From assembly GCA_964106645.2 (NCBI GenBank), contig OZ067040.1: DNA of 64,000 nt; one strand, written 5' to 3'. Below the pieces are notes generated by a model. That model was not told the origin of the DNA. It did not search any database and was given only the letters and a program-made list of their open reading frames with translations. Below, in pieces: positions 38,629-63,226 of the stretch. Each line of letters starts with the position of its first letter. Within the stretch, counting starts at the first letter, position 1. The translations under genes were made by a program, and so were the position numbers. Source of the stretch: Podarcis pityusensis (Eukaryota).

Positions 38629-41600
38629 CTGAGCAAACTGTTTCCATGCACTTGATGATGTCAGTTTCCCTGTTCCGGGCCTATACATTGGAGCCAGTGT
38701 ATAGATTTCCGTGCTGTTTTTCTGTTTGGACCGTAGGAGTGCAAGGGTAATCTTCGTACTCAATCCTGATGGGTTTGGGTTACAAGAACTAATGCACCAT
38801 GAAGCATAAACAGACGATTTCAGGGTTGTTTGCTGGACAAAACTAGGCTTTGTGTAGTTTAAGAAGCACCAGCTCACAGTTGTGGTAGTGCGCAAACTAG
38901 GGAACTGTAGGATTTGCTGGAAGTCTGCGAGATCTGTCAGGAGAATTGTTGAAGTCACCGCTTTCCCACTTGGCTGCGATGCCATTTGTACCAACATACC
39001 AAATGGCAATTTCTGTTGCTTGGGTTCGTCTTCTATCTGGCTTTCCGCTGATGGCAACCTGGTGGGGCTGAGACTCATGTCAGATGATGCTTCATCTACG
39101 TCCAGTTCTTCTGGGGATTCTCGGCCTTCCGAGGTACCACTAGACTTTTGCCCTGGAGAAGCAGAGTCAAAGCTAGGGAGCTTCTCCCTGCTTACTGGGG
39201 AAAGCTCAGTGGGAGGCATGTTGGTAGCTGGCGAATCTTGAGATGACGAGGACGGCAACGGAGAGGACGGCACACTTTCTTTTGGCTCAGTAGTACAGCT
39301 CTGCCTAACCAGCTGAGGCTTTTGAGGTCTGGGGAAGCTTTTCTTTATGTCCGAACTGGTGAGTTCTACAGCACTTAGCTCCTCGACAATCTGCCCATAC
39401 ATCTTTTCATCCTTTACTCTCTTTTGTTGCTTGGTTTCCATGAAGAGCTCCAGGCTGCTTGCCGGTGAAAGCATTCGCTTGTTTCCGCCTAGGGTAGAGG
39501 CACTATCTGAGCTGGAGGTTAAGCACAATGGGATGGAAGGATCTAAGTTCAGGGACAAGGTCTGCGGTACTTTCCACAACCCTCCATGCTGGCCTAACAT
39601 CTGCGCTATGTTGAATCCTATGCCGTGCATGGTTGCACTGGTGGCTAATGTCCTTTGAGAAAGAGTGTCGTCGACTTTGCAAATGACAATGGCAGGGCTG
39701 CTGCTCTGAGCAAGAATCTGGGAAATGCTTGTGTACATAACACTACCATAGGATGGCACGTGGGTCTGGATCCTGACGGGAACAACTGTGCCCGGTAACG
39801 ATTGGGCAGGCCCAATATTCTGGGTTTCAAAATCCACCTGTAGCTGTTGTTCAGAAGAGGTATCGGTTGATTTAATGCTACAATCGGGCTGGTATGTTGC
39901 AAGTGCATTTTTAGAATACTGTCCTGATGTTCCTGAGTAACGCTGGTAGGTTTGCTCTTTAGCATGGACATAATCAGCAGTTTTCTTTCTGATATGCTCC
40001 TGAGCATATTCCAGGTGGTAACCAGGGTGGCTTTCAGTTGAGAAAGGTTGCTTGGAGTAAGTTTTCTGAAGCTGCTGTACAAAATGATGCGGAAAGGGGG
40101 ACTGAGAGTGTTCCGAAGGCCACAGGGGCTGAGAGGGCAAGTGAACCATGCAGACTGACGGATACGGAAACTGCAACAACGTGTTCTGGAAGGGGAGAAA
40201 GGGAACCTTTTCTTGCAGTGCAAATAGATGTTGCTGTTCTGTTGAGTATTTGCTTGGAATATAAGGTGCTTGCGGGATTGAGGAATGGGAAAGTGGAGAT
40301 AAACTAGTGCTGCGTGGGGGACAAGAACCAGCAGACTGCTTCCCGGAGTCATCCAATTGGACAGAAGAGGGGGAAAGAGGCCAAGCCACATGGGAAGACC
40401 GAAGGCCGGCATGCCCGTGCTCCATTTGCTCTTGCTTTATATTTTGTTCCATGCTTGGATCAGCTTGGGAAATCTCCGGAGAACCACTGAAAGAAGCCTG
40501 GCGAACCAAAAAGCATTTTTTCCTTTCTCTTGCTGGAGATAAAGAGGTAGGAGGCGGACCTACTGCCGAAGCATGAGTCAGATTCCCGTAGTCAAAGGAT
40601 TTGCTTCGGATCTCAGGGATTTCGGCAGGGTGGGGACAGGGCATCTGTTCGGACGAGCAGCGCCTCATTTCCTTCTGTTGGTGATGCCCAGGGACAGAGA
40701 GTGAGTAACTGCCAGCTGGGACGGTTAAAAACTCAGACTGTTTGCCAAACTCATCCTGCCTTGTTGACGTTACGAACTTGATACTGTCCTCCCTCTCGAA
40801 GGACATGGACAAACTGGAACTATGGGACAAATTGCTCTCTTGGCTAGGGCTCCGAGAAAGGCTCGTCCCTGTGGACTCAAAGCTGGACTCTCCAGAGGAG
40901 TGCTCCAAGTCAGCCAGCCGCAAGCGTTTCTTCTTCGGAGGTAGCTTCTCGGCCGGCAGCTGAGAAAGGGTTTCGCTCCTCTGTGGCCACTGGAACTCTT
41001 CTGCAGGCTTCTCCGGCTCTTTGGCTGGGGCTTCCCTCTCTCTCTCGGGTTTATCAGGCTCCTCCGTCACGCGGATTTCAGGTACCTGTATATTATGCTG
41101 GCGAACAAGCCTGGGCTGCATGTGATATGACTGAGAATGTTGGGACGAAGAAGGCTGCTTGCAAACAATGCTGTCAGCGGTTTCCGTTTGCGGGACCCTA
41201 TCCGGGCTCATTGGGGAATCTGCAATCTCACTTTCACAAGTCTCAGACGACGAATACATCTTATCTTGCTGGCAAACGACAAGCTCTGTAGATTCAGACC
41301 TTTCAAACGAGTTGGGCCGGCTTAATGAATTTGTGTGTTGAATGACAGAGATTACGTTGCCTTTTCTGCTCAGGGACTCCGAAGCCTTTTCTTGATCGCT
41401 TGTCAAGGAGCATTCTTCTAAGCTTGTGGCTGGGCTTCCAGACTGCAGGTGGGGTCTGCAAATTTCAAAGCGGTCTGGGTGAGAGTGCACAGAACTGTCG
41501 TGGCTTTGGACGGCATATCTGGTCCTTGGCCCTTCCTGGATTTGTAATTTAGGATCAAAATCGCCACTCATGGGGCTGCCGGAAGCACCGCTGCACAAGG

Positions 41601-43755
41601 ATGGAGTGTCTTCCTCATCTCCAACACTCTTTTGTATTCTGCGCTTTCTAGTTTCAAAGGTAATGCTATATGTAGAAGACACTGCCTGCAACTGTGCAGA
41701 TGATTCAGGATAAAATTCTCCCCCTTGCTTTGACCCGCTCAGAGATGGTGTGTCTCTATAGCTTTGCTTCAAAGGCCCATAATCTTCCCATTTCCTGTAG
41801 TGCTTCCCAGAGGCGTCCCCCTCGTAAAAGGGCCTCTCCCCTGTTAGCAACTTCTTCATGCCCGACCCTTTTTCTCCCACGGTTGACCTGCTGGAAGCAA
41901 CCATAATGTTCTTTGCTATTCTCCCATGGTACTCTGAATCTGAGTGTCCTTCCTGCAGTGATGGCAGCTCAAAGGCCGCTTGTCGTATAAGCATGCGCTG
42001 GTGGGGTGTTCCTATTGTCCCGGGGTAAAACACATCATCGGAACCAGTCATCCTCTCGTCAAATGAATGGCTTCCTCTTAAAGCCGAAGGGACATTCAAG
42101 TTGGTTGCAGACGATGTCGGCATGGAGTTGCTTCTAATAAGCGGGTTTGTATCTGCTGGAGGCTCTAGGAGAGATGAATCACTTGGGTGGCTTCCTGGAT
42201 AAAGGCTTGATTCACTTTTGATGGATGATGTGACATTCTGAGACTGTTTGGATTCCATACTGCTGTCGTTAAAGACTTGGCTACTTTTTATAGTGCTCAT
42301 TTTGCTAGGATCAATTAGTGCTTCTTTATTTGGAGACATTCGCTCTTCAAGCATCTTCATTTCTAATCTAGGGTTTGTGAGAGGTAGGGGCTCTGCCTTG
42401 CCTTTTCTACCCATCGAGCTACGATCCTGATTGGCTGTCGCTAAAGGTTGTGCCATCCTTTGATTAATCCTATAGAATTTTCCAAAGATTATTTCTTCGT
42501 AAGACTTTGCATTTGTATTTGGTGGGCTTATTTGCTGCTCGGCACTCTCTGAGCGCGAAAAATAACCAGAGTCAGTACTTCCTTTGCTGTGGGGGCTCAA
42601 GAGATTTAATGACTGCTCAGAATCCTGCCCTTTTTTCTCAGATAGTCTTAGTGCAAGTCGCTGCTTAACTGTGTGAGAGTCATCAGACTTACTAATTAAT
42701 GTGTTCTGCAGATTGTCAGATCCAATGTGTGGGGAGCTTTCACATGGTAACTGCACGCCACTTTTGGGAATAATCAAAATGGGGACTTTCATTGGGCCTC
42801 CCAGGGATTCTTCTATGGATGAGTGAAAGCCACTTCTGCTACCGATGTCCAATGGAATCTGCGGAACGGGGCTCAGTTTGTCAGAACCTTCGACAAATAA
42901 CGAAGTCTCTTCGTCAGTATCTGTACTCTGCTCGCCATCTGAATGTATCTCTGCCTCCACGTCGATAAAACTGGCGTCTAGGTCCAATTTAGATACAGCC
43001 GACTCTGTGAAAGGTACTAATCCCGCTTTGATCGCATGGGCATGCGATTTCCTGTGCTTGTATAAATTGCTCTTTGTCTTAAACGAGAAGCCGCAAGGGA
43101 CACAAGGGTACGGACGCTCCCCAGTGTGAGACCGAATATGTTTCTTAAGTACACTAGGTTTGGCACAAGCCCGGCTACAGTACGGGCAAATGTATTTGCC
43201 AGGCTTTTTGGGTTTGTGTTCTTTCTTATGACCATCTTCCGACTGTTGCTCTATACACTTCTGAGAATACTGGCTATAAGCAGGGTTCAGACTCGAAATC
43301 TTCTTCCTGGAGAAGCTTCCGCTATGGCCATGCACGTGAAATGGAAACAAGTCCTCGGAGGCAACCGGCTGCAGGTGGCCAGGAAACTGCCATTTGTGGC
43401 CTTCTAGGCGCTGATGCGGCTTCAGGTTGTGCAGGAATCCTTGTGGCAATGAATGCTGGGGGAAAGAAAGCGAATGTTGACATGAGTAAGGACTCTGAAG
43501 GTGCTGCGGGTATTGCTTGTCTGTGGCCTGCTGGGCAACGTCGCTAGATGACACTCCTTTCCCAGAACTGAAAAGCTGTGCAGATGCTGGGTCCCCCATG
43601 TGTTCTGGGTCCCTTTGTGACTGTCCTTCCAGGCTGCCATGTGCGCTCATCTTAACATTAGCCGAATGTTCCTGCCTCCATCTACTTGGTACTTTAGCTG
43701 TTTCTCCAGACCTTGAGGTAGCATTTTGCCCTACAGCTGTATCTCCGGAGTCCAT
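38629..43755 (-). CDS. HIVEP2: HIVEP2 first (giant) coding exon, 5127 nt / 1709 codons; N-terminal C2H2 zinc-finger pair, [11 protein letters not shown], Ser-rich region
   Basis: ORF 38527..43806 contains [97 protein letters not shown] and [18 protein letters not shown], typical of Schnurri/HIVEP proteins; the N-terminus fits HIVEP2. ATG at 43755 is in strong Kozak context (acaaaATGG). Phase-0 donor CAG|gtaact at 38629/38628. Confidence 0.97.
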
Positions 43756-44155
43756 TTTGTCGCGCAAGGTCTTAAGTGCTAGTTCACTCGAAAGCTGTTC
43801 AGGCACATGAAGTTTCTCCAGTGCTGTGCTTTTTTAAAGTTAAGTTGCTCCCATTTCTCCAGAGCTGTTCCAAGTTCACAGACTTCTCTTTCTCTGTGGA
43901 ACGGTCCACGCAGTAGTCTTATAGGCATTAGATCTTTCGTAGCTCTATGCTAAAAAAAGGTTAATTGTCACACAGTTCTGTTCATGGCAGGAAGTGTCTC
44001 TGAACAGTTTTATTATACATCCATCAAGACTTGCTGTGGCATTTGAACATTATCCATGGTTTTTAAGGGTTCAGAAGAAGAATGATCCAGGGGGATATAT
44101 TTGCTCGTCAACTAAAGCAGGGTTCTAGACATTCCTCCCAAAAAGATGCAGTAGT
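43756..44155 (-). other. HIVEP2: 5'UTR portion (400 nt) of the giant HIVEP2 exon
   Basis: Strong acceptor ctctcttttaactttctctcttacag| at 44156/44155. An in-frame TAA lies upstream of the main ATG. Length is similar to the ~387-nt human counterpart as recalled. Confidence 0.8.
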
Positions 44156-44320
44156 CTGTAAGAGAGAAAGTTAAAAGAGAGAGATTAATGCAACAAAATA
44201 CTTAAGAAACATTCAATTGAGTGAATGAGGCTGGAACTAGATGTTCTCTGAGTCACTTGGTTGTTGCTGAAAGCAGCCATCTCCCATCTCTTCCTCCTTT
44301 TTTCCTCATGTTATTCAACA

Positions 44321-44543
44321 AACCAATGTGGTGTGCAGTGGTTAGAGTGCTGGACTAGGACTTGAGGGATCAGGGTTCAACTCCCCACTCAGCCATGAAG
44401 TCTCATGGGTGTCCTTGGGCCAGTCACCAACTCTCAGCCTAACCTACCTCACAGGGATATTGTGAGGATAATATGGAGGGGGGGGGGAACCATGAACACA
44501 ACCTTGAACTCTTTGGAAAAAAGGTGGGATATAAATGTAATAA
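44321..44543 (+). mobile_element. Squam3-type tRNA-derived SINE
   Basis: tgtggtgtgcagtggttagagtg (box A), gggttcaactcccc (box B), ccttgggccagtcac core and L2-like tail ggtgggatataaatgtaataa. Confidence 0.85.
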
Positions 44544-44936
44544 GGATTTTCTTTAAAATGAAAATAAAATGGAAAGTGTGTGATACAGCGTTACTGAGCT
44601 CTGATTTTCCTGAACCTTGCTTCCACTTGATAACAGCTGCTTGGAGGTGCCAAAAAGCTCACAACATCATGCCGCTAGATGTTACAGAGGAAGGAGAGAC
44701 CAAGGACCACTGTTTACAGCAATAACAATGCAGGTTCCACAATGTCTAGCTCTGGCCTGATACCACCAAATATGTCTATTAAGAAACAGTGCTTCCACTC
44801 AACCTATCTGTGCAGACAATATATGGAGAAAATCCTAAAAACAAACAAGCAATGGCTCGAATGGAAGTTTGTGAAGTTGCACACAAAAATATGTTTGTTT
44901 GGGTTTTTGTTTTAAAAATGAAATGACATAGATTGT

Positions 44937-45584
44937 AACAACAACAACAATTTATTATTTATACCCCGCCCATCTGGCTGGGTTTCCCCAGCCACGCTGG
45001 GTGGCTTCCAACAAAAGATTAAAAATACATTAAAACATTAAAAACGTCCCTAAACAGGGCTGCCTTCAGATGTCTTCCAAATGTCAGGTAGTTGTTGATT
45101 TCTTTGACATCTGATGGGAGGGCATTCCACAAGGCAGGTGCCACTAACGAGAAGGCCCTGTGCCTGGGTCCCTGTAACTTGGCTTCTCGCAGTGAGGGAA
45201 CTGCCAGAAGGCCCTCGGCGCTGGACCTCAGTGTCTGGGTTGAACGATGGGGGTGGAGATGCTCCTTCAGGTATACTGGGCCAAGGCCGTTTAGGGCTTT
45301 AAAGGTCAGCACCAACACTTTGAATTGTGCTCGGAAACGTACTGGGAGCCAATGTAGGTCTTTCAAGACCAGTGTTATGTGGTCTCGGTGGCCGCTCCCA
45401 GTCACCAGTCTAGCTGCCACATTCTGGATTACCTTCAAAGGTAGCCCCAGGTAGAGTGTGTTTCAGTAGTCCAAGCGGGAGATAACCAGAGCATGCACCA
45501 CTCTGGCGAGACAGTCCGTGGGCAGGTAGGGTCTCAGCCTGCATACCAGATGGAGCTGGTAGACAGCTGCCCTGGACACAGAAT
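44937..45584 (-). mobile_element. 5'-truncated L2 LINE (ORF2 C-terminus, 3' end, (TTG)n tail)
   Basis: ORF 45019..45438 reads IQNVAARLVTG..DHITLVLKDLHWLPVRFRAQFKVLVLTFKALNGLGPVYL, a diagnostic L2 C-terminus. Upstream RLDY*NTLYLGLPLK carries a stop. Confidence 0.92.
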
Positions 45585-46505
45585 TGGAAACCACACCAGT
45601 AAGCATATATTATCTGTGGAACAATAGCAGTAATTGTGATGGGCAGCAGGACTACCTCATGTCAGAAGCAGCAAAATGATATAGTGCTGGAAGGGACTAT
45701 GGGAGATAACAACCAACTAAAAGATACTCTGAATAGACCTGCTGAAAGTAGTCAGCTTAAGTCCTTTGATTCTAGAGGGTATACCTACCGGCTCACAAAG
45801 TAGGAAGGAGAAGCTTTGTGTCCTGCCAGACGTTGGCTTTTAAGGGAAGGTGATTACAAGATATGCATATGCAAATCTTGTTCTTGTGGCTCCCTACTCA
45901 TATCCACACAGATTAGGTCATGCTAGGTCCAACCTACGTGTGACATACAGATCCATGCAGTGATCTTTTGATGTTTTGAAATTTTACTGAAAAGCAGCAG
46001 CAGGGGGCACCAAACTAGACCCTTTCCACTGCGGATTCTATTTCCAGTCTAAATCCCCTACAAACTGCAGTTAGCCCACAGCCGCTCTGTTCCAATTCAG
46101 AGACCCTAATATATGATTTAACATGTAAAAAATTAATATACCAGGAATTCAGCCCATACATTAGTCTAGTTTGGTCCTTACAACTTATGCAGCAGCATCC
46201 AGGGCCAGCCTGTTTGTGGAAGATCTGCAGCTAGCAAGATTCTTTGCAAGTCTTTGAATGCAGAATATGCAAAACTATCAAACAACTAAGGCAATTACTA
46301 GATCAGGCCATTGGCATCTAACCCCCAAAAGCTGCATATGTCTAAGTTTTACCTAAACAGTTTCTGCCTGTTTTCCACATAAACAGAAGAGCCATGATAC
46401 ATGCTACCAAGGATAGGATATCTTCGTTTTGTTTTGAAATCTTTCCTGTTCCAGTGCCAGAGCAAAGGATATCTTTAATTTGAGTATTGTTGTTTTTAAA
46501 GTTAC

Positions 46506-46550
46506 CTGCATCTTCTTGGCCTCCACTGTACATGACTATCTTGAAGCTTC
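46506..46550 (-). other. HIVEP2: 45-nt non-coding 5'UTR exon of HIVEP2
   Basis: tttttttctttccctctag|GAAGCTTCAAG...AAGATGCAG|gtaact. Strong splice signals; 45 nt matches the human exon preceding the giant exon as recalled. Confidence 0.75.
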
Positions 46551-48055
46551 CTAGAGGGAAAGAAAAAAACAAAATAAAAATAATTAGGAAAATGTTTAAA
46601 ATCTATATGGACCTTGCACAAAGAGAGAGAGGGAGAGCTATTTTAAAATTGTTCCAGCGCTTATCCATCTTCAATGAATAGAAACTGTTTGGGGGTTTTT
46701 TTGGGAGGTGGAACAGACACATTACCTTCTGTTCTGAAGAATATGTTTTTTTTTAAAAAAGTCCTAGCCAATATAGCTTTTTATGTTACACCTTTGAGTA
46801 TACAGTCAACAAACTCCAATATCTCTGCCACTGGCCTCCCCAGCAGCGCTAAATAAGGAAATGAAGCCGCTGTATAGTGAGTCCAGGATGGGGGATGAGA
46901 GACAAAAATGACAGAATAAACAAGGGATGGAGGAGGGGAAAGACCTCTGCAGGAGATCAATTCTTACCTGTGTCGATGTAGGCAGTGGGGAGAGAGAATT
47001 GGGGAAGGCTAAAGTGATGGAGAGATGGAAGGGAAGAGGAGAAAGAGGAAGAGAGAGAGAACAGGTAGAAAGGAGAGCGCAATGCAATTCTGCAACATTG
47101 CAAATCCCACCTACATTTGTCTTTGGCTCCACATACTTTTGGATCTAGATCAGCCCCCACCCCCATTGGTTGAAACTCTGTTTTCCCAGTAGTCAAAATG
47201 TCCTCAGTGGGGGAAAGGCCCCACACCCCTGTCATAAAAGGAATGTCTGTTTAAAAGGATGGGCGAAATCAATAAATTATTTTTGCACCATACTTATTAT
47301 GTTTCTGAATACACGGCTTCATATAAAGAACAGATGTTGGCTTACAAATAATTTTCAAATTGCAATGTACAAAATACTGGCTTCATTAATAAGCTAATTA
47401 ATTATCTCACTAGCCAAGCTCCAAATAAATAAAAAGGCACAGTTGCTTGGGGGAGGGAACTGACTCTGAAGAAAGCCAGATGGTTACGAGCAAAATAACT
47501 ATGCTATTACATAAATAAAGGAAATAACATCTTTCCTTCTTACCAAATATCTCTGTCAGCCACAGTGATGAAAATGTCAAAAGCAGCAAGAATCCTGCCA
47601 ATTCTATAGCTGCCCTGGTAAACAAACTGACCGCAATCTAACAAGAGGCAGGTCAAATACAAAAGACAGGGTAGAGAATCGCCCCACGTGCAACAGTGTG
47701 CCTTGCTCAGGCAGTTCTCCATTTCAAAGATCTGGAAATGCAGCAGCAGGATGGGTACCCATCTTCCCTCTTCAGACGTCCCACTTTCTCCATCCCTCTA
47801 ACCATTTATTCAGTACAGGGGGAGGAGAAACTCCTGAGATTCTTTCTGCACACTTTGCAGCAATGAAACCAGGTTACCCATCTAAAGCTGTGCACACACT
47901 CCCATTTACTCTGTAGCCACTGGTATGGGAAGTGGAGCATGCAAGATGTTAGCCACAATCCACATCCACCCTGTATCTGTCCTGCATCTGGGTGAGTTCC
48001 CCACCACCACCACCACCAAAACCAGCTTCAATCCCCACGTGGTTAAGAGAGCAAC

Positions 48056-49641: not shown

Positions 49642-52600
49642 AGATAGTTATACCAGCTCATTAGCTCATATAGAATCCTTTTCCACATGCAGAATAAACT
49701 CAACCAGGAGAAACTTTTTAAATGTAGAAAAGGGTACATTCTACCTCCAAAACTTACTGAGTTTCCATTACTTGAATATTTTTAAGTTCTTCCATGCTAG
49801 AAAAACCAAAACAACACAATTCATTAAGCTTAGAGAAAGTGATTTCCCCAAAGTTGCAAAGCATGTTCCAAGACCAAGTGGGGATTTGAACTTCAGCGTC
49901 CCAAAATGCCTGGCCATCATACTAGCAACTGCACTACACTGGCTCTATCACAGGCTTGTCCGTAAATATTTACATACAGGCAGCAACCATTTTGGGCGCG
50001 TCCAATATGTGAGCAACCACACGCATCACGCTGAGCCTGGAAGTGACCCAAAAATGTCACCAAAAAGGGGTGGAACGGGGTGGCCTTACACAGGCCTTGC
50101 TGATGTATGCAAAAGCCTGGAGCGTAGCAAATCGGTCACTATCTGTATATGTTTGCTCATCTGTGTTATATATGCTGCTCCATCTAACTAGATGCTGGTT
50201 TTCTGAAGCAAATCATATATTAAAAACTACACTAGATATATTTGATTTGGGACTCTTTTACTTGTTATTTGTCGACAAAGGCACATCTGCCAAAATGCGC
50301 ACATGGGAAAGGGCAATATGATGCAATTACACCCATGCTGCATGGCTATGTGACATGTTCACATGCAATGTGCAAAGCAGCCCTTGTGCCTTGCTGCTGA
50401 GCCAAGCTCTGCCACTCAGAAACATTTAAGAGAAATCAGCATGCATACGTCTATTCTCTTTTCCCTTCCACATTTTAGGTGCCCTGAGATGGTGAATCAC
50501 TACAAGCCAGTCTTCTTGCTTGTTTCCTCAAAAGACACACAATAGTTGCAAAAATAGTTCATGCAAATGAAGCTCCTACAGCGTCAGCAGCCAGATGAGC
50601 GTGGGTGATCGGAGAAGACTCTGCAGTTGCAAAGAGCAAACTGTTTAAGGAGAGCAGTTGTCTTTTTTTGCCGGGTAGTGGGGGGGGGAGAGAGTTTGCC
50701 CTTGCTGTTCACTGTTATATTAAGCTTTGTTCTTCCTACCCCAAAAACCACCCATTTGCAATGCAATGATAAAGGACACCTGACAAGATCTGATCCTCCT
50801 TTCCTACTAACACAGGAAGCAGTGCTTTGCTGAGAACTGAAGGTACACTGGAGGTGTCATTAAAAAATAAAGGCAAGCATAAAATCTAAATATAACCAGG
50901 TCTACCCACTGGGTATGACTGTATTCATATTTTTAGCAAGTCTAACACTTGATGTTTTAGGTGGTGTTTTTTTTAACCTCACCTAAATGCAAAGCAGCAT
51001 CCTGGTTTTCAATATACTTGTCTGCTTGCTCAGTTACATTCTTATACATGGCAGTTTCTCTGTGGTGCTGCTAAGTACAGTGACACTGGTGTATCTAACA
51101 AGCATTGTTGAGATCTATGCTAACTAAAGCTCCTGCAATTGTCACTTTTCACTCTCTCTCTCTCTCTTTTGCAGGAGAAAAAGATAAACATCCACGTTAC
51201 TTCTAGATATCTCTAAAGAACCAGGGAACAGCTACTTATTACAAAATTCAGATAAGAAAGCTAACTGACCTAAGGAACAAAGGCTAACAAACATAAAAAT
51301 CTAGTGCCTTTTCAAAAACGAACACCTAACAAGTCCAACTGCAAATCATAAAGGTATCATATACTAGACGACAGCAGGCTACAAACCAAGAGAAGTATTG
51401 AGAAAATTCTACCTGAGCGGGCTGAAGCAGTCTGATGTATTTCCATCTCTGAAGCTAATGTGGTCTAGGCCCCGGGTAGTAAAAGGGTGAGAGACCTCTT
51501 GGGGACACCCTCTCATCACCCCACCCTGGCCTCCTCATAGAGAAGATCGAGTTGCAAATGCATCAATCAAATAAGGAACAAATGTTAAGTTCAGGTGGTT
51601 CAAGGCATGCCCCCACGCGACTGAGGGAGAGGAAGGAAGAATGTCACCAACCCATATGACTAGGTCTTTCCACTTCCACCTATGGCCTATAATTAGAACA
51701 GAGGTAGTCAACTTAGTTCAGTGAAGGGCCAGACTGCAGCGGAAGGAACTGTGAAGAGAGGCACAGATTTGTCATACTGCACATGTAGTAAGGTCACAGA
51801 AATTCACATAAAGATTTATTCTGAATGTGGGCACACTCATCTCCAAAGAAACTGTATTTAGTTTCCTTCTGCTGGCTCCAATCATCCAGAAGCGATATTA
51901 CTATATATGTCTCAAGAGAAGACCCCCTGGAAAATCCAGAGTGGTTCACAAATCTGAATCCCTTCCTCCCATGGCAGCAGGCAACTTTTCCCTAGTACCA
52001 AACATGTAGTTCCCCCTCTTCCCCAGGCGTAACATTTTTAGCACATGGTCTGTTTTCTGGGAGTGGAAACAGCTTATCGAACAGGTTTCCAATTGCCCTC
52101 ATTCATTTCCTTCTCCCACATCCACCAGCACCATCTTCTTGGACTGTCCTCTTCCTGCACCCTCTGCCTCCTCTCCCAGACCACATGATGCTACTTTCTA
52201 CCTGCTGCTTCCTGTACCTGGCAAGCCTCATGCTCTCTTCTGTCCTTAAATCCATAACATGTAGAGCCAAACACTAATCTATTCATGGCATTGTTACCAT
52301 CCTCCAGCTCTCTCTATTCCTCTGACAGGTCAGGCAATGTTTAGAGAGGGTATCCGGACTGTCAGATAAGGGCCGCAACCTCTTGCTTCATTCCCAATTC
52401 CCTTTCTCTAGGCCTCCCTTATTGCTGAGGATTTGTTCAGATGGAACCCTGTACATGGCTGAAGACTATGTGCAATCTAGCTTTGCTCTGAGCAATGAGG
52501 GTGTCATGGTGGTCATGAGAGAGAGCCTTTGTTGTGTGAGTAAGTGCTGATCCCAGCCCATGCCAATCACAAGTAGCATTGTGTGTAAATGGTTCCTAAC

Positions 52601-63089: not shown

Positions 63090-63226
63090 CAGTGGTGGCC
63101 AAACTTGGCCCTCCAGCTATTTTTGGACTACAACTCCCATCATCCCTAGCTAACAGGGCCAGTCGTCAGGGATGATGGGAATTGTAGTCCCAAAACAGCT
63201 GGGGGGGCCAAGTTTGGCCACCACTG
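63090..63226. mobile_element. Near-perfect palindromic hAT MITE, 137 bp
   Basis: cagtggtggccaaacttggccc ... gggccaagtttggccaccactg; 8-bp flanks tgatacat / cgatgcat (6 of 8). Confidence 0.88.

What the first reader, a model, noticed from the sequence alone, without database searches (positions are those of the whole stretch)
44138..46519. Splicing builds a 14-bp hairpin at a 5'UTR exon junction of HIVEP2
Seen: the last 14 nt of the 45-nt exon (CCAAGAAGAUGCAG, 46519-46506) are complementary to nt 5-18 of the next exon (CUGCAUCUUUUUGG, 44151-44138), with 13 Watson-Crick pairs and one G-U. After splicing, the mRNA reads CCAAGAAGAUGCAG|ACUA-CUGCAUCUUUUUGG, a tetraloop hairpin with the junction at the base of the loop and an upstream AUG inside the stem. 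In the pre-mRNA the same pairing would bring the donor and acceptor of a 2.35-kb intron together. Inference: an element that either aids splicing or makes translation depend on inclusion of this exon. I know of no description of it.
Basis: partly seen in the sequence, partly recalled or inferred. Interest (0 to 1): 0.7.

Follow-up and report, generated by a model that had tools for sequence, protein, structure and literature searches.

The report
Lizard splice-junction hairpin inside HIVEP2 uORF
Splicing joins two complementary 14-base stretches in the leader of this lizard's HIVEP2 gene into a predicted hairpin that likely nudges ribosomes onto a short upstream reading frame, but a bird keeps only its inner half and the human sequence cannot form it, so it is a lineage-limited feature, not a conserved splicing element.

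Summary
The arms pair over 14 bp (13 Watson-Crick, 1 G-U), the gene is HIVEP2 of a lacertid-like lizard, and the 46506-44155 junction appears in 5 of 5 runs laid from close relatives. Chance is about 2e-6 to 5e-5 per junction, so a few such stems are expected genome-wide. Conservation is weak. A bird ortholog keeps the 45-nt exon and the inner 7 bp (one compensatory change) but only 10 of 14 pairs, as neutral drift predicts (mean 9.96). The human uORF peptide allows at most 4 contiguous junction-spanning pairs if the exon ends in AG, yet human uses the same junction, so splicing does not need the stem. The in-stem AUG is absent in the bird. What is conserved is a uORF-rich leader, including the AUG at exon nt 18 (lizard, bird, human). 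The stem starts at +15 from that AUG and fits the size and position of known uAUG-downstream hairpins. Best reading (0.45): a lizard-extended hairpin that likely favours uORF initiation. Close rival (0.40): a neutral by-product. Neither was tested experimentally. The scan had not noted this on other DNA.

The parts
46506..46550 (-). 45-nt 5'-leader exon of HIVEP2
   Evidence: Splice signals in sequence; joint in reads/contigs; same 45-nt exon in bird and human (142776147-142776191)
46531..46533 (-). uAUG at exon nt 18-20; starts a 23-codon uORF across the junction; context G at -3, U at +4
   Evidence: kept in bird with the same stop; Met16 of human Ribo-seq uORF c6norep211 maps to it
46520..46522 (-). 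Exon nt 29-31: AGG here, an AUG in four relatives and in the bird, directly at the stem base
   Evidence: Loose-end consensus; bird uORF list
46506..46519 (-). 5' arm of the hairpin (exon nt 32-45); base at +15 from the nt-18 AUG
46509..46511 (-). AUG inside the 5' arm (17-codon uORF); not conserved in bird
44156..46505 (-). 2350-nt GT-AG intron holding repeat fragments; 1270 nt in bird
44152..44155 (-). 4-nt loop (first 4 nt of the large exon); 3 of 4 letters differ in bird
44138..44151 (-). 3' arm (nt 5-18 of the large exon); 6 of 14 letters differ in bird
44112..44114 (-). Stop codon of the 23-codon uORF, same position in bird
43926..43928 (-). Vestige of an upstream in-frame start used by birds, turtles and others; out of frame here (49-codon uORF)
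38629..44155 (-). Large exon: 400 nt of leader, then the HIVEP2 start codon at 43755-43753
   Evidence: (97% to Podarcis muralis HIVEP2 over residues 1-260); donor at 38629 chosen because it gives 2428 aa

Best explanation
Splicing joins two complementary arms into a predicted 14-bp mRNA hairpin that starts 15 nt into a conserved upstream reading frame of HIVEP2 and likely slows scanning ribosomes so that they start more often at that upstream AUG, which would tune HIVEP2 protein output. Shown: the sequence complementarity, the junction in close relatives, the AUG and 23-codon frame shared with a bird, and translation across the same junction in human. Predicted: that the hairpin folds in vivo. 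Inferred: the effect on start-codon choice (it would favour the nt-18 AUG and disfavour the AUGs at the stem base and inside the stem) and its sign on main-ORF output, which is uncertain because a 23-codon uORF can allow reinitiation and ten further AUGs follow before the main start. The full-length stem is limited to the lizard lineage sampled. It likely grew from a shorter 7-10-bp stem in the lizard-bird ancestor. Whether it is under selection is not shown.
For: Geometry and strength match the uAUG-ds class: 14 bp, -19.9 to -21.3 kcal/mol, base at +15, against 12-20 bp, -19.9 to -34.1 kcal/mol, mostly beginning within 25 nt, and active in human cells (PMC10499604 passages). The nt-18 AUG is kept in lizard, bird and human; start, length and stop of the uORF are the same in lizard and bird while the peptide is not constrained (13 non-synonymous, 5 synonymous, 6 identical codons of 24). 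7 of 9 leader AUGs are kept in bird against 37% of all trinucleotides (P=0.017). The human frame through this exon is a catalogued Ribo-seq uORF classed 'conserved'. The bird keeps the inner 7 bp despite three changes, one compensatory G-C to A-U and one U-A to U-G. All 28 stem letters are unchanged in 4 of 4 relatives.
Against: The bird keeps 10 of 14 pairs, exactly the neutral expectation (mean 9.96; P(>=10)=0.62; P(inner 7 intact)=0.10 at flank rates, 0.035 given the observed number of changes; P(any run of 7)=0.27 and 0.09). Its 3' arm is more diverged (6 of 14) than the flanks (57 of 224), and its hairpin is only -8.6 kcal/mol, below the uAUG-ds range. No codon choice for the human peptide gives pairs 8 and 12; with the exon ending in AG, pairs 3 and 4 are also impossible and the best junction-spanning stem is 4 bp (110,592 choices). 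Invariance in the four relatives is uninformative (P=0.37). An AUG at a suitable distance is a modest coincidence in a leader with 12 AUGs in 445 nt. The energy sits at the lower edge of the class range. There are no ribosome-profiling or probing data for any lizard, and only one non-lizard nucleotide ortholog was obtained.
Confidence: 0.45

Rival explanations
1. Chance complementarity with no measurable function: one of the few strong junction hairpins expected in a vertebrate genome, lying in a leader that is conserved for its uORFs.
For: 0.4-10 such junctions are expected per genome from the per-junction rates (junction count recalled). Bird pairing is at the neutral mean. Human lacks the stem. 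The loop is not conserved. The paralogous HIVEP loci show no similar leader. A -20 kcal/mol hairpin alone did not inhibit reporters in PMC10499604.
Against: The inner 7 bp survive three changes in bird (P 0.035-0.10). The stem base falls at +15 of the one AUG of this exon shared by lizard, bird and human. Even an unselected hairpin of this strength at that spot would be expected to shift initiation.
Confidence: 0.4
2. An old sauropsid element: a 7-10-bp helix closing a 4-nt loop at the junction, kept by selection in reptiles and birds (as a weak scanning brake or a protein-binding site) and lost in mammals.
For: Same register and loop size in lizard and bird, one compensatory and one wobble-preserving change, pair probabilities 0.99-1.0 for the inner 7 bp in bird. 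A 7-bp junction stem occurs at about 2-5% of random junctions.
Against: Not independent of the lizard sequence. P=0.09-0.27 once any 7-bp run is allowed. The loop differs at 3 of 4 letters. No Rfam family matches the unspliced region (the joined form was not scanned). Only one bird sequence.
Confidence: 0.1
3. Exon-exon pairing in the pre-mRNA brings donor and acceptor together and aids or regulates splicing.
For: The arm-arm duplex (-20.3 kcal/mol) beats the best partner of either arm in the intron (-11.4, -13.7). The arms lie directly at the splice sites.
Against: Bird and human splice the same exon with half or none of the stem. Both splice sites are ordinary and strong. From established spliceosome knowledge (recalled), exon positions -1 to -3 pair with U1 and then U5, and the 5' exon is threaded single-stranded through Prp8, so the duplex would hinder rather than help. 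Only the included form was seen.
Confidence: 0.05

Closest known systems
uAUG-ds, hairpins downstream of upstream AUGs (Xiang et al. 2023, PMC10499604; passages read). The earlier Kozak 1990 downstream-hairpin effect is recalled, not read.
   Same: Hairpin of 14 bp and about -20 kcal/mol beginning at +15 from a uAUG in a uORF-bearing leader of a transcription-factor mRNA.
   Different: Built from two exons, so it exists only after splicing. No probing, ribosome or helicase data. Lost or weakened in bird and human.
Yeast RPL30 (L30) kink-turn in the 5' UTR, formed in both pre-mRNA and spliced mRNA (PMC3706390 passage)
   Same: Precedent for a 5'-leader structure at a splice site that links splicing and translation.
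   Different: The L30 element is a protein-bound kink-turn with autoregulation. Here it is a plain helix with an unconserved loop and no known ligand.
Human HIVEP2 Ribo-seq uORFs c6norep211 and the 11-codon uORF ENST00000367603_506_539 (Sandmann et al. 2023, PMC10032668 supplements)
   Same: Same gene, same 45-nt exon and junction, same in-frame Met at exon nt 18-20.
   Different: The human uORF starts one exon earlier and ends in a shifted frame, and its codons cannot form the stem.
IRE1-spliced XBP1/HAC1 exon-exon pairing (recalled, no call)
   Same: Exon ends pair across the splice junction.
   Different: That is non-spliceosomal cleavage and ligation of a short intron with conserved loops. 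This is a 2.35-kb GT-AG intron.

Membership tests
uAUG-ds (downstream hairpin of an upstream AUG) | Hairpin begins within about 25 nt downstream of a uAUG | tested here: met
   Stem base at +15 from the AUG at 46533; criterion
uAUG-ds (downstream hairpin of an upstream AUG) | 12-20 bp and -19.9 to -34.1 kcal/mol | tested here: met
   14 bp, -19.9 to -21.3 kcal/mol in lizard, at the edge of the range; not met in bird (7 bp, -8.6 to -9.8)
uAUG-ds (downstream hairpin of an upstream AUG) | The uAUG is translated in vivo | tested here: inconclusive
   The human frame through this exon is a Ribo-seq uORF, but it is annotated from an AUG one exon upstream; no lizard data
uAUG-ds (downstream hairpin of an upstream AUG) | Structure forms in cells, and its disruption lowers uAUG initiation | not testable with these tools
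   Needs probing and reporters
Conserved RNA structure supported by covariation | Pairs kept above neutral expectation across distant species | tested here: not met
   Bird 10 of 14 against neutral 9.96; human incompatible; inner 7 bp only suggestive (P 0.035-0.27)
Splicing-promoting long-range RNA bridge | Pairing is kept wherever the junction is kept | tested here: not met
   Junction kept in bird and human without the full stem
Splicing-promoting long-range RNA bridge | Stem mutations change splicing | not testable with these tools
   Needs a minigene
Rfam cis-regulatory or miRNA hairpin | Match to a covariance model | tested here: inconclusive
   0 of 4 weak hits in window 38000-64000 overlap the arms; only the unspliced form was scanned
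Conserved-peptide uORF | Amino-acid constraint on the uORF product | tested here: not met
   13 non-synonymous against 5 synonymous codon changes lizard-bird; the human entry is nonetheless classed 'conserved' among mammals, with negative PhyloCSF scores

The most novel reading that the evidence does not exclude
A splice-assembled start-codon switch: the 45-nt exon delivers both the uAUG and half of its downstream hairpin, and lineages reached the same ribosome capture by different routes. Lizards perfected the stem, birds traded its outer half for a strong-context AUG in the same uORF frame, and humans use a start one exon upstream.
Probability: 0.12. Interest if true: 0.6.

Novelty: new member of a known kind. 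Interest (0 to 1): 0.3.

Why it matters
HIVEP2 loss of one copy causes an intellectual-disability syndrome (MRD43; PMC7850738 passage), so its leader is a plausible site of dosage control. If the hairpin works as inferred, it is a natural vertebrate example of a uAUG-downstream hairpin that only splicing can build, and a clean three-lineage test of how uORF strength is retuned. Because human lacks the stem, it has little direct medical bearing. The more general result is the amniote-wide uORF leader around this exon.

Tried and rejected
Whole-genome relatives: none held. Exact 24-nt pattern in metagenome contigs: 0 matches. Protein-based locus search: 1 ortholog among 360 candidate stretches in metagenomes, 0 of 76 in genome contigs, 0 of 67 in viral contigs. 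Paralogs on C8 and C7 (HIVEP3-like and HIVEP1-like; names recalled): no significant similarity to either arm region in 30 kb each. Repeat origin of the arms: both regions are single-copy at the search's sensitivity. uORF peptides as protein queries: 1 weak hit of 968 aa, not examined; none for the bird frame. No listed holder was on record as RNA; the contig runs are RNA by guess, and the intron-less GT-AG joint is what supports it. No skipped isoform was seen, but contigs drop rare forms and X23 gave a single junction read, so skipping is untested. The exon upstream of the 45-nt exon was not located in the 17 kb of window or the next 100 kb with a short peptide motif, so an upstream in-frame start in lizard is not excluded. 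A-to-I editing was rejected: 14 bp is short for ADAR (recalled) and no other letters were read in the arms. Pre-miRNA was rejected: 32 nt, no Rfam hit. The first version of the exon 5-6 control used a probably wrong donor and was redone. Human or mouse leader nucleotides were sought in supplements of PMC10635273 and PMC13087467 (0 hits). Two ids were not held. Main texts of two bioRxiv 5'UTR papers do not mention HIVEP; their supplements are closed and could list the gene.

Full report
Observation. The minus strand carries a 45-nt exon at 46550-46506 with a long pyrimidine tract and AG before it and GTAACT after it, and a large exon starting at 44155. The last 14 nt of the small exon pair with nt 5-18 of the large exon in 13 Watson-Crick pairs and one G-U, leaving a 4-nt loop. 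Folding the joined sequence in eight contexts of 36-245 nt gave every pair a probability of 0.81 or more; the core is -19.9 kcal/mol. The open frame from 43755 is HIVEP2: 97% identical over residues 1-260 to the Podarcis muralis entry, with five further coding exons in the window. The organism is therefore inferred to be a lacertid-like lizard.

Junction. Of 24 runs listed I laid five. The joint 44155/46506, skipping 2350 nt with GT-AG ends, stands in one contig each of X9, X11 and X14 at the depth of the exon, and in one raw read of X23. A second lay showed the same exon end as the only loose end in X1, X9, X11 and X14. These runs differ from the window at 4-7 of about 460 sites, so they are close relatives; splicing in the window's own species is inferred from them. 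No skipped form was seen, but contigs drop rare forms.

Chance. A 14-bp junction-spanning stem arises at 1.9e-6 (at most one G-U) to 3.5e-5 (any G-U) of random junctions, 3 of 60,000 by energy and 8 of 200,000 by length. Four of the gene's other five junctions have best stems of 2-6 bp, and the fifth folds at -3.5 kcal/mol. It is striking for one gene, but with roughly 2e5 junctions per genome (recalled) 0.4-10 are expected, so conservation has to decide.

Conservation, close relatives. All 28 stem letters are unchanged in 4 of 4 runs, while 14 sites vary in the next 438 nt and 2 in exon nt 13-31. That has P=0.37 under neutrality and is uninformative.

Conservation, bird. A protein-based scan of metagenome contigs gave one ortholog among 360 candidates, L012, 98% identical to a bird protein. 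It has the same 45-nt exon, a 1270-nt intron and the same acceptor. In register, 10 of 14 pairs remain. The inner seven are all kept, with one compensatory change (G-C to A-U) and one U-A to U-G; four of the outer seven are broken; MFE is -8.6. Mutating the lizard arms at flank rates (57 of 224 sites) keeps 9.96 pairs on average; P(inner seven intact) is 0.10, or 0.035 given the observed 2+6 changes; P(any run of seven) is 0.27 or 0.09. The 3' arm (6 of 14) and loop (3 of 4) have changed more than the flanks. The full stem is thus not conserved, and the inner helix is only a hint. The in-stem AUG is absent in the bird.

Conservation, human. No human nucleotides were obtained. A supplement of PMC10032668 lists Ribo-seq uORF c6norep211 over three exon pieces, the middle one 45 nt long, which fixes the codon phase across the junction. 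Over all 663,552 codon choices for the 12 residues concerned, pairs 8 and 12 never form and the inner seven are never complete. Restricted to an exon ending in AG (110,592 choices), pairs 3 and 4 are also impossible and the best junction-spanning stem in any register is 4 bp; the lowest MFE in 20,000 samples was -9.0. This rests on the published peptide and coordinates. By outgroup comparison (inference), the lizard line gained two pairs (11 and 12) and the bird line lost one or two (9, probably 8), which suggests a 7-10-bp ancestral stem; the lizard was picked for its perfect stem, so those gains cannot be counted as evidence.

What is conserved. The AUG at exon nt 18-20 is present in lizard and bird, and Met16 of the human uORF maps to it. 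In lizard and bird it opens a 23-codon frame with the same stop, but the peptide is unconstrained. Seven of nine leader AUGs are kept in bird against 37% of all trinucleotides (P=0.017). The leader is under selection for its start codons rather than visibly for the stem.

Mechanism. The stem base lies at +15 from that AUG, where the leading edge of an initiating 40S subunit sits (toeprint +15 to +17, recalled). PMC10499604 (abstract start and passages) describes hairpins of 12-20 bp and -19.9 to -34.1 kcal/mol, mostly starting within 25 nt of a uAUG, that raise uAUG initiation in plant and human cells and do nothing without the uAUG. The lizard hairpin fits at the edge of that range; the bird's does not. 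I therefore rank first (0.45) a lizard-extended hairpin that likely favours the nt-18 AUG over the AUG at the stem base (present in relatives) and the one inside the stem. Folding in vivo, initiation at nt 18 and the sign of the effect on HIVEP2 are all inferred. A neutral by-product is nearly as likely (0.40). A selected sauropsid core helix gets 0.10. A splicing role gets 0.05, because the junction is kept where the stem is not, the splice sites are ordinary, and the duplex would cover exon positions that U1, U5 and Prp8 need single-stranded (recalled); in its favour, the arms have no better partner in the intron.

Known and new. The closest class is uAUG-ds; two of four defining features were met, one was inconclusive and one could not be tested. 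Yeast RPL30 is a precedent for a leader structure present in both pre-mRNA and spliced mRNA (PMC3706390 passage). Six library searches (listings only) turned up no description of this hairpin. The library lacks most subscription papers, and bioRxiv supplements were closed. Passages of PMC8036502 mention only restricted HIVEP2 translation in infected cells. Earlier scan notes held nothing on this locus or gene.

Verdict. A real, splice-assembled, predicted hairpin in a uORF-rich HIVEP2 leader. It is complete only in the lizards sampled, halved in a bird and absent in human. Probably a new member of a known kind if functional, and otherwise chance. Interest 0.3. The main limit is that only one distant nucleotide ortholog could be obtained.

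Noticed in passing
window 43928-43756 (minus): 19 of the 120 listed HIVEP2 proteins (turtles, birds, alligator, wombat, caecilian, axolotl, some unnamed) begin with a 52-57-residue extension before the usual start; none of the top twelve hits (named squamates and one unnamed entry) begins at that start. Here the same AUG is present, but two extra bases put it out of frame, turning it into a 49-codon uORF that stops 23 nt before the main start. Four relatives show no indel against the window, so it is not an assembly error.
   Followed up: partly
window 46520-46524 (minus): The window differs from all four relatives at exon nt 27 and 30; the nt-30 change removes an AUG that relatives and the bird have directly at the stem base.
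   Followed up: partly
L012 3583-3592: In the bird, the changes that break the outer stem create an AUG in near-perfect Kozak context, in frame with the 23-codon uORF.
   Followed up: partly
window 44250-44560 and 44880-45630: High-copy repeat fragments in the intron, seen as read pile-ups; not classified.
   Followed up: no
window 63110-63205: Inverted-repeat segment with weak Rfam miRNA hits on both strands, below gathering scores; probably a small transposon remnant.
   Followed up: no
window 49758-49796 and 46968-47008 (minus): Two short segments with acceptor-like and donor-like ends upstream of the 45-nt exon; exon status untested.
   Followed up: no
G000:C6:12905788-12905970: A fourth zinc-finger match at 66% identity besides the three HIVEP-like loci; not identified.
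   Followed up: no
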